DNA of 64,000 nucleotides from Fibrobacteria bacterium (GCA_037447435.1 JBBIGR010000006.1:1-64000), one strand, 5' to 3'. Shown: positions 57,001 to 63,000, counted from the stretch's first letter. A program made the numbers.

Positions 57001-60000
57001 CGAGAATTTCGGTCGAGGGAGTTCCGGGATACGCGCAAGCGACCCGTAAACCGGCTTCCCAGGCACCGCGGGCTACTGCTTCGTCTCCGGATAATAAGGC
57101 TTTTGTTTGCATAATTTTTATGTTTCCGTCGGTGATTAAATTGTACAGGTATCTTTGGTTAAGGAGCATTGCCGAGCAACAGTTCGGCATTCTTATAAAA
57201 TATCAGCTCTTTTTCCTCTAATGAAATAGGTAAACCGTCGAGCCATTGAATATCATCGGATTGGTCGTACCACGGCGAATCGGAGCCGAACAGGATTTTT
57301 TCCGCCCCCTGCTTTCTCATCATGCGTACGAAATCCTCCTTGGGCAGAAATTCCCTGACCGCTGCGGTGTCGAAAAACATGGACTTTACGGAAATCTTTT
57401 TTTCCACCTCGGCCCAAACCTGCCAACCGCCCATATGCGCCGCAACGATTTTTAACTTTGGAAAATTTTCCGCAATGGTAACGAGCGCTTCGGGCAACGC
57501 ATGGTCGCAGGTAAACGGTCCCGGGTCTTTACCCGCATGCAGAACAACGACCAATCCCGCGTCGGAAAGCGCTTCGTACATAGGGAAATTCTTTGGATCG
57601 TCGATGTAAAAATCCTGATATTCGGGATGCAATTTAATTCCCTTGATACCCATAGTTTTTATTCGTTGTACTTCGTCGGCGATTCCGGTCATTTCGGGAT
57701 GCAATGTTCCGAACGGTATGAGTTGGGGCGTCATAAGCGCGGTACAACCGTTATTGATGGTTTGCACCTGTGAAGGCTTGGTGGCTATCGGCAAAAGCAC
57801 CGATGTCGTCACACCGCTTGTACGCATGGATTGTAACAAACCGCCGCAGGTACCGTCGGTATAGGCCTTTGTACCTCCGGCAGCGTTTTCCATGAGAGCC
57901 GAAATTGCCCTGCTTGCAAGACTATCGGGAAATATATGCGTGTGAAAATCGATAATTTTCATAGATTACAAAATTACTGCTCCGTCGTATGAAAAAAACA
58001 AAAATCCAATCTGTTAATCCCGTGTTTGAATTGCTTCGATATGGCCTATGGCGCCGGTTTGTATATTCGCCGCATTGCCTTCATCGGTATCGATATGCAT
58101 TGCCAGTTTAAAACCCGGATTGATACGGATCAGGACATCGCCGAAAATCAATTCGCGTTCGCCTTGCACGCGAACCCTGACTTTGAATTTGTCGCGCAAT
58201 CCGAATTTAAGCGCGTCTTCGGGTTGCATGTGAATATGACGGAGCGCGCAAATGACTCCTTTTGTCAAAACCACGGACCCTTTGGGGCCTTCGATGGTAA
58301 TGCCGGGAGTGTTCTCGATGCCGCCCGATTCGCGGATCGGAGGGTGAATGCCGAGTTTGAACTGTTCGGTCATGGCTATTTCCACCTGCGTTTCTTTACG
58401 GGTCGGTCCGAGGACACGTACCCGGTCGACACGGCCTTTAGGCCCGACAAGGGACACGGTTTCCTTGCACGCATATTGCCCCGTTTGAGACAGATCGTGC
58501 GCGGGAGTCAAGGAGTGGCCCGGCCCGAACAACAGTTCGACATGTTCTTGCGCCAAATGAACGTGATGTGCGGAAACTTCGATCGGTATTCCGGTATTTT
58601 TCTGGGTACTGATGATGTCCTCAATATACGTGGACTTGACGGTACGGATCGTTTCGCGCGCAATCATTCGTTCTTCGTCTGTGGGAACGACGAGTATTCT
58701 TGCCCGTGACGAATCGGTGGCGATATCGGTTATTGCGCCGAACCCGTCGGCAGCCTTGTTTTTGTGCTCATCGATTTCGATGCCCATTACCACCAGCCCC
58801 TGGCATGCGAGACTTCGGACGCCGGCACTGCCCTGGCCGATTCCGCCGGTAAATATGACCACATCGCAGCCGCCCATTGCAGCCAAGTACGAGCCGATGA
58901 ATTTGCGTATCTGATAGCAAAACGTCTTGTATGCCAACAGAGCGCGATGATGCCCTTGCTGGCTTGCCCGTTCCAATTCCCGCATATCGTTGGATATGCC
59001 GGAAATCCCCTTGAAACCGCTCTCATTGTTGATAAGCTTTTCGATTTGGTCAACCGTCATTTTTTCGGTTTTCATCAGGTGCACGAGAATGCTCGGGTCG
59101 ATATCGCCGCAACGCGTTCCCATAATGAGGCCTGCCGTCGGCGTAAAGCCCATGCTCGTATCCACCGACCGGCCGTGATCTATGGCGCAAATCGACGAAC
59201 CGTTGCCGAGATGACAAGAGATAATATTCAGACTGTTGAAAGAACGTTTTAAAAATTGCGCCGTTCTGAGCGCGACATACATATGCGATGTGCCGTGGAA
59301 ACCGTATCTGCGAAGTTTTTTCTGTTTGTAATACTCGTACGGCAATCCGTACATATACGCATACGGCGGCAGCGTATTGTGAAACCCGGTATCGAAAACA
59401 ACGACATGGGGAATATGAGGAAACAGGATTTGCGCTTCCTTGATTCCTATGATATGCACTTTATTATGTAAAGGAGCGAATGAGGAAGCCCGGTCTATTG
59501 CATCAATGACGTCCTGATTGACAAGGGTCGGGGCGCTCAAGGTGTCGCCGCCGTGAACGATCCGATGCCCGACGCCCGTGATTTCCTGCAGTTCGGGACT
59601 CATTCCGAACTCTTTTTGCCGCAATCCTTTGGCCATAGCCTGAAACGCTTCCCTGTGTCCCATGCCTTCCGGCTTTGGAACATCGATGCTTTTGCTGCCG
59701 ATTTTACAGGTATGCTTCACCGCATCGCTGCCGATTCGTTCTATCGAACCGCGAATAATTTTCATTTCGTCCGTCGAATCGAAAAGAGCGTATTTAAGCG
59801 ATGACGAACCGCAATTTATCACCAAAATCTTTGCCGGATGCTCGGTCTTAAGCCTTAATCCGTAGGGATCGTCGCTTTTTTCAATTGCCTCGGTGGCAAG
59901 AGTACTGACATTGGCCCATTGCGTTGTCCGTTCCGTTATTGTCCGGGATAAATATCGTATTGCCTGGGGATGTGAAATCAGGATGGAAGAAAAGAGATTT

Positions 60001-63000
60001 TGCGGAATCAGCAATGCTTCACACCGGGTTATACCGATGATGTTTGCAATCGTTTGATTGCCGGTCATAAGCGACATTTCGCCGAAAACATCGCCTGCTT
60101 CCAAAAGGCTCAGAGTGACTTTTTGTCCGTTATTATCGGTGACCGCTGCTTCGGCCTGCCCGGAAAGCAGCACGCCCATGAACCTTCCTTCTTCGCCGAA
60201 TTTGACCACAGCTTCTTTTCCTTCAAAAGTAATATCCTGCGAACCTTCAACAAGTTGCTGCAACTTATCTTGAGGAAATCCTTTGAATAATTCAACCTTT
60301 TCGATTAAAAATGTGAGCAATTCCTTCGTTTCCACATGAACCCCTTTTTATATATAAAAAAAAATAGTTGACTATCTATTTATAGTACCTTAAAATGAAT
60401 CCATAAACAATAAAAATGCCTTCGAATCCAATCAAAGGCTTTTATGAACAAAAAAGCCTAACTTGTTGGACCATCAAATGTTATTTTAATAATTCTTTGG
60501 ATAAGATTAACAAAAATACACCATAGAATCATTAAACGAATAGCAATTTAATGAAGTCTTTAAAAGAAGTTCTAACAGAGGCGATTTACGCAGGAATTTG
60601 CGGTGACGCATTGGGTGTTCCCGTCGAATCCACGACTCGCCAGGAATTGGCCCTGTCCAGCGTTAAAAATATGCTTGGGTATGGCCGATACGATCAACCG
60701 CAAGGCACGTGGTCCGACGATACCTCGCTTGTGTTATGCACCATGGAAAGCCTCATTCAGGGATACGATCTTGAAGCAATGGGAAAGAAATTCTGTTCCT
60801 GGCTTTTTGATGCTTTGTGGACACCGACCGGATTCGTATTCGACGCCGGTCTGACAACCTATCTGGCTCTCGATAAAATTCAAAACGACCATAAAAGCGC
60901 TGCCGTTTCGGGCGGCATCACCGAAGACGACAATGGTAACGGCTCATTAATGAGAATGATGCCGGTCGCTTTTTATTTTGCGCATCTGGCGATAGAACCT
61001 TTTTTAAAAGCCGTGCACGACATTTCGGGCATTACCCACGCGCATCCCCGGTCGAAAATAGCATGCGGAATGTATTGTCTTTTCATCAGAGAATTGCTCG
61101 CCGATAGAGACAAGGACCGGGCGTATAAGGCTGCGGTAAAACAAGCGGTGGATTTTTACAGCGCAATACCGGAATTCAACAACGAATTGTCGCATTTCAT
61201 GCGCATTATTTCCCATGCAGTCCCCACGCTTCCCGAAAACGAGATCCAATCGTCGGGATATGTCGTGGATACGCTCGAGGCAAGCCTGTGGTGCGTGTTG
61301 CGTCACGATTCCGCCAAAGACGTCCTGTTGGCAGCCGTCAATCTTGGTCTGGACACCGACACGACCGGCATGGTTGCCGGCGGTTGCGCGGGCATTATTT
61401 ACGGACTAGACTCAATTCCCCCCGCATGGCTGAAATCTTTGGCGCGTAAAAAGGAAATAGACGAGCTTGTTTCCCGTTTCTGCGACGTGATTTGCGCTTC
61501 GAATTCCGGAAAATCGGCATGACGGGCATTTTACTTTATCCGGATCTTTTGACTCTATGAAACCTGTTTACATCAGAGACTTCGACCTGCTTGTCATCGG
61601 TGAAACATTCATTGAAATCGGATGCGACGGCGACATAGCCCTGGCAAAAGAATACCGCAAAGACATCGGCGGCGCCGACATCATCACCGGCGTCACCGCG
61701 GCACGGCTCGGATCGAGCGTTTCACTCGTTTCGGCGATTGCGGCCGATCCGTTTCACTCATTCATCCGGGAAGCACTGCTTTCTCAGGGTGTCAATATCG
61801 ACCATACGATTACCAGCCAGGGATACAACGGCCTTTACTTTACCAGTCCGCGTGCGAGCGAGCAGCGGGAATACCTGTTTCATAGGCCGGGGACTGCGGC
61901 ATCGTCCATTACGCCGTCCCTTATTTACGACGATCTCATCGAAAACAGCAAAATCGTGTATGCATCAAGCGAATTGCAATCGGTATCCAAAGCCGCACGC
62001 CATACGGTTTTCAAAGCGTTCCATCACGCCCATATCAACGACATTATGGTCGCGTATGACCCGAATTTACGGCTTCGCCTGTGGTCCCTTGACGATGCGA
62101 AAGAATGCCTGTGGAGCGTTTTGCCTCTTGTCGACGTCATGCTGCCTTCGGCGCCCGACGAATCGAAGGCATTGTTCGGATACGAACGCCCCCTCGACGT
62201 CATCGGTTTTTTATGGGACAGGGGCGTTTCGATTGTTGCCGTTAAAAACGGAGAAAAAGGGTGTTTGGTAGGATACGACAGTAAGATCGAAGAATTCCCC
62301 ATGCCGCAGGGCAAAGGGACCGTGACCGACGTGACGCTTATCGGCAGCGTTTTCAACGGCGGTTTTCTCCACTGCATCGCACGAGGGTTCGATCCGTTTT
62401 CCGCAGCGCAATTCGCCAACAACGTCGCTCTTTACAAAGGAATAAAAGGCGGTTCCATTTCGTCGCTGCCCACCAAAGAAGATCTTGCGTGAAACCGCAA
62501 TCCTGGTTCATAACGATTCCTCCGTTCGGCGCTGCCCGGGAAGTCGGCCTCCAATGCGCCGCCGCATTCGAACAACTCCTTGGAAAAACGCATTGTAAAA
62601 CGTTCGATTGCAAAACCTATCTGGATTTTTTTTCCGCTGCGCTGAAAAATCCCGAAGAATCCGTGGTCGTCGATTTGGTCAATCATGTTTTGACCGTACA
62701 ATGCCTTGCACAAAAAGCAACCCATTGCCTTGTGTGCGCATTGTCGCCGGTGACCCTTTTTACGCTCAATCTTTTGCGGTCGTATTCGGTGAAAACATGC
62801 CACTGGTTTTATGAAGATTATAAAAAAGCCGTATACTGGAAAGACGTTTTAGCGGGGTACGATTACTTTTTCGCAATACAAAAGGGACCGGTGGAAGCCG
62901 CGTGCGCGGCAGCGGGCAACACGTATCGCTTCTTGCCGACCGCCGCAGGCCCGTACCATCAATTGCCTTTGCTTTTTCAGAATCAGCCGCTTCCCAAGAC

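What a model noticed while it worked through the whole genome (the two positions that open the first line are those of the whole stretch)
58014..60335. One polypeptide for the whole acetate branch: cNMP-binding domain fused to acetate kinase and PduL-type phosphotransacyl [...]
g00925 (773 aa) joins a cyclic-nucleotide-binding domain, a full acetate kinase and a PduL-type phosphotransacylase, and it is the only acetate kinase and the only phosphotransacylase gene found. I read it as a channelled acetyl-CoA-to-acetate, ATP-forming enzyme switched by cAMP or cGMP. New would be second-messenger control of the main fermentative ATP-yielding step.
Evidence so far: Pfam rows: cNMP_binding 36-120 (1.5e-15), Acetate_kinase 169-560 (4e-142, full model), PTAC 584-758 (7e-77, full model); no other Acetate_kinase, PTA_PTB or PTAC row; two class III cyclase genes g00345, g01362; PTAC in 24 of 80 genomes of the order, 25 of 295 of the phylum.
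(Added by a program. Inside this text positions count along the whole contig: contig position 1 is position 1 of the stretch shown here. "Call 12" and the like, gene names such as g00115 and contig names such as C1 are that model's own, and its searches are not shown. The text may have been shortened before it was handed on; [...] marks where a part breaks off. The agent that wrote the report below was given it as the finding of a first reader that could run no searches.)

Follow-up and report, generated by a model that had tools for sequence, protein, structure and literature searches.

The report
Sensor-capped acetate kinase-PduL fusion enzyme
One real, widespread but unstudied bacterial gene joins the two enzymes that interconvert acetyl-CoA and acetate to a sensor-type domain that probably sits on the kinase hinge, but the sensor lacks the arginine that normally grips cAMP and the organism has other ways to make acetate, so a cAMP switch on its main energy step is unlikely.

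Summary
The 773-aa fusion of a cyclic-nucleotide-binding (CNB) fold, acetate kinase (AK) and PduL is real and is the genome's only AK and only phosphotransacylase. Catalytic residues are intact, except two changes in AK's adenosine motif. It occurs in 26 of 81 genomes of the order and in several other phyla. Ack-PduL fusions and channelling are already in print (PMC4784909), and this scan met the three-domain form in 19 other windows.

The arginine that holds the cAMP phosphate is Thr here and absent in 119 of 119 close and 21 of 21 distant rows, whereas 10 of the genome's 11 other CNB domains keep it (14, 45, 102). An ADP-forming synthetase-like gene accompanies 23 of 26 fusions but only 3 of 18 canonical Pta genes (55), so it is the likelier main acetate route.

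New here: a model docks the CNB domain at the AK hinge (0.61, best control 0.29; 98), on a patch conserved mainly where CNB is present (99, 102). Best reading: an allosterically controlled acetyl-phosphate route whose ligand is unknown.

The parts
58014..60335 (-). Whole ORF, 773 aa: CNB-fold domain + acetate kinase + PduL-type phosphotransacylase
   Evidence: AlphaFold2 model of the whole chain: mean pLDDT 89.1, pTM 0.80.
59877..60335 (-). CNB-fold sensor domain with its C-terminal helices (about residues 1-153; Pfam core 36-120 = 59976-60230)
   Evidence: Model of the domain alone aligns to CNB domains, best Z 17.7, rmsd 2.3 A over 141 residues.
60045..60083 (-). Non-canonical phosphate-binding cassette, residues 85-97 (GEMSLMTGNQTIA); Thr95 stands where the conserved Arg is
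   Evidence: Pairwise alignments to PKA/PKG domains; family column counts; internal control of 11 other CNB domains.
60123..60143 (-). Beta-hairpin tip, residues 65-71, the main predicted docking element of the CNB domain
   Evidence: Interface of the predicted complex. D67 in 116 and G70 in 118 of 120 rows of the close family; less conserved in distant clades.
59835..59876 (-). Linker, residues 154-167, with a conserved DPYG motif
   Evidence: D156 and P157 in 120 of 120 rows; retained at the N-terminus of G057's kinase, which has lost the CNB domain.
58656..59831 (-). Acetate kinase domain (residues 169-560); catalytic and acetate-pocket residues present; adenosine motif GIGQGS instead of GIGENS
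   Evidence: fold match to solved acetate kinases, TM 0.94-0.95 by target length for the top two.
59163..59282 (-). Kinase surface patch, residues 352-391 (with 321-325, 560 and 564), predicted to receive the CNB domain
   Evidence: family-specific conservation of Y325, L356, N367, D386, H387, R389 and R564.
58062..58586 (-). PduL-type phosphotransacylase domain (residues 584-758); no encapsulation peptide; six zinc ligands and the phosphate-binding Arg present
   Evidence: residue roles from PMC4784909.
60341..60346 (-). Ribosome-binding-site-like AAGGGG
   Evidence: Read directly; consensus match only.

Best explanation
A non-microcompartment, single-chain replacement for Pta plus AckA. The PduL domain interconverts acetyl-CoA and acetyl-phosphate at a two-zinc site, and the kinase domain interconverts acetyl-phosphate + ADP and acetate + ATP (inferred from intact active sites; not assayed). 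The N-terminal CNB-fold domain packs its barrel against the back of the kinase, on the two crossover helices beside the hinge, and tunes domain closure when a small ligand binds its pocket (model plus inference). The ligand is probably not cAMP or cGMP bound in the usual way. A ribose-containing molecule without a cyclic phosphate, such as a purine nucleoside, is the leading guess because the ribose-binding Gly-Glu is kept. In this organism the enzyme is most likely a regulated second route (acetyl-phosphate supply, overflow, or acetate uptake at high acetate) beside an ADP-forming synthetase/CoA-transferase module that carries the bulk flux. Shown: architecture, residue conservation, gene distributions. 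Modelled: docking. Inferred: activities, allostery, ligand class, physiological role.
For: Kinase residues equivalent to M. thermophila N7, K14, R91, H123, D148, H180, H208, N211, G239, R241, D283, R285, G331, I332 and E384 are present, each in 116-120 of 120 rows. PduL H48, H50, E109, H157, H159, H204 and R103 are present in 119-120 of 120. Cassette Arg: 0 of 119 aligned close rows (T109, S6, A3, N1; 1 further row gapped) and 0 of 21 distant representatives, while Gly85 and Glu86 are kept in 21 and 20 of 21. Docking: score 0.61, best of 3 controls 0.29; the mark was reached by 116 of 157 solved complexes and 2 of 215 mismatched pairs, counts that hold only roughly for this job; runs agree in at least 58% of contacts; partner pLDDT at least 74. 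The patch lies 4-12 residues after the positions equivalent to the hinge residues Ala152 and Thr385 of Salmonella AckA (PMC3475010; mapping by motif, my inference). 7 of 20 kinase interface positions are family-specific against 35 of 399 overall. H387 is in 115 of 115 close fusions, 13 of 16 distant fusions, 3 of 3 CNB-AK proteins of family f6, 1 of 4 f6 kinases without CNB and 6 of 106 stand-alone kinases. CNB stayed on the kinase after PduL was lost in 3 genomes. Distribution: ACD-like gene in 23 of 26 fusion genomes, 3 of 18 Pta genomes and 38 of 40 genomes with neither.
Against: No ligand or activity was measured. The Glu that PMC10959531 shows to be the main nucleoside determinant (E311) is Ser here (S105, A14 of 120), and the fold search does not separate nucleoside-binding from cNMP-binding domains. 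The docking model and the conservation test draw partly on the same alignment; the enrichment (hypergeometric p 0.0007) ignores that surface positions pass the filter more easily; only a kinase monomer was modelled. The CNB-side hairpin is poorly conserved in distant clades. Two representatives join CNB to PduL with no kinase (P0183, P0243; the longest contigs of the two are under 2 kb), and several distant fusions do not match the kinase motifs. CNB was lost in 4 f6 genomes with the kinase intact. Asn335 is Gly here, and the matching change to Glu in E. coli raised Km for ATP over 45-fold (PMC4390882). The ACD-like protein scores below the TIGR02717 cut-off (550 vs 567 bits) and its substrate is untested.
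Confidence: 0.5

Rival explanations
1. One reading: the CNB domain binds cAMP (or cGMP) and switches the enzyme, with a neighbouring basic residue standing in for the lost arginine.
For: Gly85-Glu86 kept; the Gly that co-varies with the Arg in PMC2246266 is kept (G50 in 114 of 120); Lys/Arg sits one position before the Arg site in 101 of 120 close rows and Arg51 is in 97 of 120. Two cyclases with adenylyl-type motifs and 10 Arg-bearing CNB domains show cAMP signalling is plausible in this genome. Class III cyclases occur in 21 of 21 genomes at least 90% complete that have a CNB-bearing kinase, against 26 of 40 others. An earlier scan note reports cyclase neighbours in another clade (e1-5242133, unchecked).
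Against: No Arg at the site in 119 of 119 close and 21 of 21 distant rows. This protein has Gln, not Lys/Arg, at the adjacent position, and distant clades have Pro there (15 of 21). G50 falls to 10 of 21 and R51 to 5 of 21 in distant clades. The cyclase link is not significant by genus (11 of 11 vs 14 of 18, p 0.27), and G057 lost the CNB domain while keeping 5 cyclase matches. No cyclase among 111 neighbouring ORFs at 20 loci.
Confidence: 0.15
2. The CNB domain binds no ligand. It is a structural clamp that stabilises the kinase or positions PduL.
For: The Arg site is variable in distant clades (A8, T6, S4, V2, I1). Residues 90-94 have pLDDT under 50 in the domain-only model. The domain was lost at least twice in family f6. 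The predicted interface uses the outside of the barrel rather than the cassette.
Against: Pocket residues stay conserved across proteins 35-49% identical: G85 21, E86 20, S88 15, T91 14, G92 17 of 21. CNB identity (60%) matches that of the kinase (62%) in the close family.
Confidence: 0.25
3. Whatever the ligand, the fusion is the main ATP-yielding acetate route, and the ACD-like gene serves other acyl-CoAs or protein acetylation.
For: Only kinase and only phosphotransacylase in the genome, with a fused pyruvate:ferredoxin oxidoreductase present. 23 of 26 fusion genomes lack full-length Pta. The ACD-like gene overlaps a CoA-transferase-GNAT gene, so its role is not certain.
Against: ACD-like and Pta are nearly exclusive (3 of 18 together), and the pattern spans 7 genera in 4 families, whereas ACD-like and the fusion co-occur (23 of 26). 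38 of 40 genomes with neither Pta nor fusion have ACD-like. Chitinispirillum alkaliphilum makes acetate without Pta or Ack and was proposed to use a one-step synthetase (PMC4814513; its placement in this order is recalled). Related genomes are not independent samples.
Confidence: 0.25

Closest known systems
Ack-PduL multidomain proteins noted by Erbilgin, Sutter and Kerfeld 2016 (PMC4784909; author names from an earlier scan note)
   Same: PF06130 fused to acetate kinase, no encapsulation peptide, proposed to replace Pta and to channel substrate (section 11 read).
   Different: That section does not mention an N-terminal CNB domain and reports no test of a fusion. Most two-domain AK-PduL rows form a separate branch from the three-domain family.
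Acetate kinase AckA (TIGR00016; M. thermophila 1TUU/1G99)
   Same: Catalytic, acetate-pocket (V93, L122, F179, P232) and G331/I332 positions kept; TM about 0.94.
   Different: Fused at both ends; E334/N335 become Gln/Gly in 114 and 115 of 120 rows; a conserved surface patch near the hinge that stand-alone kinases lack.
PduL phosphotransacylase (NF011652; R. palustris 5CUO); Moorella PduL1/PduL2 used for acetate formation (PMC10823632)
   Same: Six zinc ligands, R103, S127, Q107, R194 and N211 kept; rmsd about 1 A. PduL serving acetate production is known.
   Different: C-terminal domain of a fusion; the first RHxH motif reads HHxH (120 of 120); K70 is variable; no BMC shell gene in the genome.
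Canonical cNMP-regulated enzymes such as mycobacterial Pat/Rv0998 (4AVB) and PKA/PKG CNB domains
   Same: Same fold (Z 15.6 to Rv0998, 17.7 to PKG II) placed in front of an enzyme. Rv0998's cAMP control of acetyl-CoA synthetase is recalled, not looked up.
   Different: The cassette Arg is absent and the output is a metabolic kinase.
Nucleoside-binding CNB domains of trypanosomatid PKA-R (PMC10959531)
   Same: Arg replaced by Thr and the next Ala by a bulkier residue (T318, V319 there; T95, I96 here).
   Different: The key Glu (E311) is Ser here; eukaryotic tandem domains; no closer in fold than cNMP binders.

Membership tests
Acetate/propionate kinase (AckA family) | Family profile above curated cut-off over full length | tested here: met
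   PF00871 1-392/392; TIGR00016 468 vs 293 bits.
Acetate/propionate kinase (AckA family) | Catalytic and metal residues N7, K14, R91, H123, D148, H180, R241, E384 | tested here: met
   Aligned to 1TUU; 117-120 of 120 rows. Roles from PMC3475010 and partly recalled.
Acetate/propionate kinase (AckA family) | Adenosine motif for ATP use (G331, I332, N335) | tested here: inconclusive
   G331 and I332 kept, unlike the PPi-using Entamoeba enzyme at G331; N335 is Gly in 115 of 120 rows.
Acetate/propionate kinase (AckA family) | Measured acyl-phosphate:ADP phosphotransfer | not testable with these tools
   Needs an assay.
PduL phosphotransacylase (PF06130) | Two-zinc site H48/H50/E109 and H157/H159/H204, plus R103 | tested here: met
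   H591, H593, E652, H700, H702, H747, R646.
PduL phosphotransacylase (PF06130) | Family profile above cut-off and two-barrel fold | tested here: met
   PF06130 258 vs 25 bits; NF011652 263 vs 209 bits; TM 0.96-0.97 to 5CUO.
Microcompartment-associated PduL | Encapsulation peptide and shell genes | tested here: not met
   The domain follows the kinase after a short helix; 0 PF00936 matches in a 99.57% complete genome.
CNB fold superfamily | Jelly-roll barrel with flanking helices and Gly-Glu cassette start | tested here: met
   PF00027 55.9 vs 27.5 bits; Z 17.7; G85/E86.
Canonical cAMP/cGMP-binding CNB domains | Arg209-equivalent in the phosphate-binding cassette (PMC2246266) | tested here: not met
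   Thr95; no Arg in 119 close or 21 distant rows; 10 of 11 other CNB domains of the genome have it.
Canonical cAMP/cGMP-binding CNB domains | Gly169-equivalent co-conserved with the Arg | tested here: inconclusive
   G50 present here and in 114 of 120 close rows, but in 10 of 21 distant ones.
Canonical cAMP/cGMP-binding CNB domains | Measured cNMP binding | not testable with these tools
   Needs a binding assay.
Nucleoside-binding CNB (trypanosomatid ribose-binding cassette) | Arg replaced, and following Ala replaced by Val | tested here: met
   Thr95 and Ile96 (position 96: M44, I39, T18, V12 of 120).
Nucleoside-binding CNB (trypanosomatid ribose-binding cassette) | Second Glu (E311/E435) that binds the ribose 3' and 5' hydroxyls | tested here: not met
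   Ser88 (S105, A14 of 120), by register from the Gly-Glu.

The most novel reading that the evidence does not exclude
A widespread family of anaerobic bacteria has put acetate kinase under direct allosteric control of a repurposed CNB domain. The domain clamps the kinase hinge and reads a ligand that is not a cyclic nucleotide, such as a purine nucleoside. That would make it a bacterial enzyme-linked CNB with a new ligand, and a ligand-gated, possibly channelled, single-chain acetyl-phosphate pathway.
Probability: 0.4. Interest if true: 0.72.

Novelty: new variant of a known kind. Interest (0 to 1): 0.45.

Why it matters
Acetate kinase and phosphotransacetylase set ATP yield and acetyl-phosphate levels in fermenting bacteria. 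No acetate kinase with a dedicated sensor domain turned up in my four literature searches. This family gives one soluble protein in which three open questions can be tested: what an Arg-less CNB domain binds, whether a docked domain gates the kinase hinge, and whether acetyl-phosphate is channelled as proposed in 2016. Natural forms without PduL, without CNB, or with neither exist as controls. It also matters for annotation: where these proteins carry a name it is usually 'acetate kinase', so genomes scored as lacking Pta may hold a hidden phosphotransacylase.

Tried and rejected
Assembly or chance fusion: rejected. Microcompartment role: rejected. A conserved gene neighbourhood: none. Up to three ORFs on each side at 20 loci (111 ORFs; six ORFs of a 21st locus were dropped as duplicates) differ between genera and include no cyclase. 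Two are small YfcE-like metallophosphoesterases (label recalled) two genes from the f6 CNB-AK genes. Ligand from fold: Foldseek ranks trypanosome PKA-R first, but E-values differ under twofold from a cGMP-bound domain, and VIA-align ranks cGMP-bound PKG II first, so it is uninformative. ESM Atlas gave only generic CNB clusters. Co-loss of CNB with cyclases: one of two loss events, not significant by genus. PPi-type kinase: unlikely because G331 is kept, not excluded. Promoter scan at chance level, 5 sites against 4.6 expected. Expression: no RNA holder was listed, which is no evidence either way. The maximum-likelihood tree did not finish, so the trees are FastTree only, midpoint-drawn and without a one-clade test. 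The kinase-PduL interface was not scored, so channelling is untested. A paper search on kinase hinge terms returned nothing. Two scan look-ups returned nothing. No supplements were read; those of PMC4784909 and PMC2246266 could list this domain architecture.
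Full report
1. Observation. The ORF at 58014-60335 (- strand) is 773 codons without an internal stop. 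It has the three Pfam domains at the stated positions, and the kinase and PduL parts pass NCBIfam cut-offs. In the genome (99.57% complete) it is the only Acetate_kinase and only PTAC match; there is no PTA_PTB and no BMC shell match. Of 119 listed homologues at 59-76% identity, 117 carry all three domains. Named homologues come from Chitinivibrionales, Oligoflexia, Kiritimatiellae, Verrucomicrobia, Aminicenantes, Acidobacteriota and Thermodesulfovibrionia and from Smithellaceae/Syntrophaceae. The closest titled genome record is a Fibrobacteres bacterium at 74%, so I infer a Fibrobacterota host. AlphaFold2 folds the chain with pLDDT 89.1 and pTM 0.80.

2. The two enzymes. Against M. thermophila AckA the positions N7, K14, R91, H123, D148, H180, H208, N211, G239, R241, D283, R285, G331, I332 and E384 are all present, each in 116-120 of 120 aligned rows, query included. 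The acyl pocket (V93, L122, F179, P232) is acetate-type by the residue list in PMC3475010 (passages). The exception is the adenosine motif, GIGQGS for GIGENS. PMC4390882 (passages) makes Gly331 the main nucleotide determinant, and it is kept; the same paper cites a more than 45-fold rise in Km for ATP when the Asn335 equivalent is changed to Glu in E. coli. Nucleotide affinity may therefore differ. Against R. palustris PduL (numbering fixed by matching residues named in PMC4784909), all six zinc ligands and R103 are present in 119-120 of 120 rows. The first RHxH reads HHxH in all 120, and K70 is variable. Both activities are likely but unmeasured.

3. The sensor. The cassette reads GEMSLMTGNQTIA. 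In register with PKA and PKG domains, Thr95 takes the place of the arginine that PMC2246266 (passages) describes as coordinating the cAMP phosphate. No Arg occurs there in 119 aligned close rows (T109, S6, A3, N1; one more row gapped) or in 21 CNB-bearing representatives of 50% clusters. As an internal control, 10 of the other 11 CNB domains of this genome have the Arg. The pocket has not decayed: G85, E86, S88, T91 and G92 are kept in 21, 20, 15, 14 and 17 of the 21 distant rows. Trypanosomatid PKA-R domains bind nucleosides with Thr and Val at two of the three specificity positions, as here, but their main determinant is a Glu that is Ser here (PMC10959531, passages and section 15). Fold searches do not separate the classes. 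A nucleoside ligand is therefore a lead, not a result.

Points for cAMP: G50 (the co-varying Gly) is in 114 of 120 close rows, Arg51 in 97, and Lys/Arg precedes the Arg site in 101, although this protein has Gln there. Both cyclases show adenylyl-type motifs (motif meaning recalled). Cyclases are in 21 of 21 well-assembled genomes with a CNB-bearing kinase against 26 of 40 others, but by genus this is 11 of 11 against 14 of 18 (p 0.27). None of 111 neighbouring ORFs at 20 loci is a cyclase.

4. Where the sensor acts. With the three domains as separate chains, the CNB domain docked on the kinase: score 0.61, best of three controls 0.29 (kinase replaced). The mark was reached by 116 of 157 solved complexes and 2 of 215 mismatched pairs, counts that hold only roughly for this job; contacts agree in at least 58%, and partner pLDDT is at least 74. 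No solved structure with both domains appeared. CNB residues 38-47, 65-71, 98 and 100 touch kinase residues 321-325, 352-368, 386-391, 560 and 564. These include the two helices that cross between the kinase lobes and lie just after the equivalents of the hinge residues Ala152 and Thr385 (PMC3475010; mapping inferred). The cassette itself (85-97) is not among the listed contacts.

Seven of the 20 kinase contact positions are family-specific, against 35 of 399 overall. This test is biased towards surface positions and shares sequences with the model's alignment. H387 is in 115 of 115 close fusions (4 of the 119 homologues were left out because anchor motifs were not found), 13 of 16 distant fusions, 3 of 3 f6 CNB-AK proteins, 1 of 4 f6 kinases without CNB and 6 of 106 stand-alone kinases. 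Against: only a kinase monomer was modelled, the CNB hairpin varies in distant clades, and CNB-PduL proteins without a kinase exist on short contigs.

5. Evolution in the order. Of 81 genomes, 47 have a kinase match, 27 PTAC and 18 a full-length Pta (two further genomes with partial PTA_PTB matches were not counted as Pta). Twenty-six carry the fusion: 24 in one frame and 2 split over contig ends. In family f6, all 8 genomes have Pta and none has PduL, yet their kinases nest in the fusion clade (support 97-100, FastTree). Three keep CNB and four have lost it; G057 still begins with the linker motif. So PduL can be swapped for Pta while CNB stays with the kinase, and CNB is dispensable.

6. Is it the main ATP step? 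Probably not. The genome also encodes AMP-forming Acs and a 703-aa ADP-forming acyl-CoA-synthetase-like protein that keeps its His motif (role of the His recalled), has no GNAT domain and overlaps a CoA-transferase-GNAT gene. This ACD-like gene is in 62 of 81 genomes: 23 of 26 with the fusion, 3 of 18 with Pta and 38 of 40 with neither. Among the 61 genomes at least 90% complete the counts are 16 of 18, 2 of 15 and 29 of 30. The gene that trades places with Pta is thus the ACD-like one, and the fusion is an addition. PMC4814513 (passages) reports a cultured Fibrobacteres fermenter that makes acetate without Pta or Ack and proposes a one-step synthetase. Caveats: related genomes are not independent, one of the 62 matches is a broken gene (G039), several are partial, and the ACD-like substrate is untested.

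7. What is known. PMC4784909 (passages and section 11) states that PduL occurs in multidomain proteins annotated as Ack, may replace Pta, and may channel substrate. PMC10823632 (passages) shows PduL serving acetate formation. Four searches of the held library (listings and abstract starts only) showed no paper on a CNB-fused acetate kinase; subscription journals and supplements were not covered. This scan has look-alikes in 19 windows of 19 genomes, and seven of the eight notes shown doubt cNMP binding, most citing the missing Arg. I had reached that point, and the notes are not independent support. The hinge docking, the co-conserved patch, the stepwise domain loss and the ACD/Pta exclusion are not in the short texts of those eight notes.

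8. Verdict. Observation confirmed; interpretation partly supported. It works like Pta-AckA in one chain with a CNB-type regulator. It belongs to the AckA, PduL and CNB-fold families, but fails the defining residue test for canonical cAMP/cGMP binders. New variant of a known kind, interest 0.45.

Noticed in passing
L102:5737-9701 (G000 contig C50), - strand: A 703-aa ADP-forming acyl-CoA-synthetase-like gene overlaps by 4 nt a 618-aa CoA-transferase-GNAT gene. The pair lies on the same contig a few kb apart in many genomes of the order, and the synthetase is nearly exclusive with Pta. Possibly the main acetate/ATP module; the GNAT's role is unexplained.
   Followed up: partly
L120, L121, L122 (G053-G055); L124, L125, L020, L030 (G057-G060): Family f6 kinases descend from the fusion: CNB-AK in 3 genomes, AK alone in 4, all with a separate Pta. 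Their adenosine motif has changed again, to GIGL followed by Y, W or S and then N.
   Followed up: yes
P0183, P0243: Representatives with CNB joined directly to PduL and no kinase domain; short contigs, so they may be deletions or misassemblies.
   Followed up: no
P0125, P0126, P0129, P0130, P0132, P0134, P0135, P0139, P0142: Distant three-domain fusions whose kinase domain fails several catalytic motif patterns while the PduL motifs mostly persist, in line with scan note e1-4155415.
   Followed up: partly
P0147: Reverse order, PduL before acetate kinase, on a separate branch: the two enzymes appear to have fused more than once.
   Followed up: no
window 53528-57962, - strand: Co-directional genes downstream: amidohydrolase, indolepyruvate:ferredoxin oxidoreductase alpha and beta, phenylacetate-CoA-ligase-like; a second such ligase at 48690-50000 (+). 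The gap after the fusion is 51 nt, but this neighbourhood was not seen beside the fusion at the 20 other loci.
   Followed up: partly
L109, L110 (G027, G028): In genus g13 the fusion is followed by malic enzyme and a two-subunit fumarase, a possible central-metabolism operon.
   Followed up: no
L063 (G067 contig C482) and L129 (G006 contig C167): In-frame internal deletions in the kinase domain of two fusions, about 120 and about 20 residues.
   Followed up: no
window 50091-53531, + strand: 1146-aa Ser/Thr-rich, probably secreted protein with nine Kre9/KNH-like Ig repeats.
   Followed up: no
L083 (G000 C9:88809-91874) and L084 (G000 C2:145647-147683): The two class III cyclases: one membrane-anchored with a large N-terminal region, one with FHA-like and GAF-like parts (domain labels from recall of motifs, not scanned).
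   Followed up: partly
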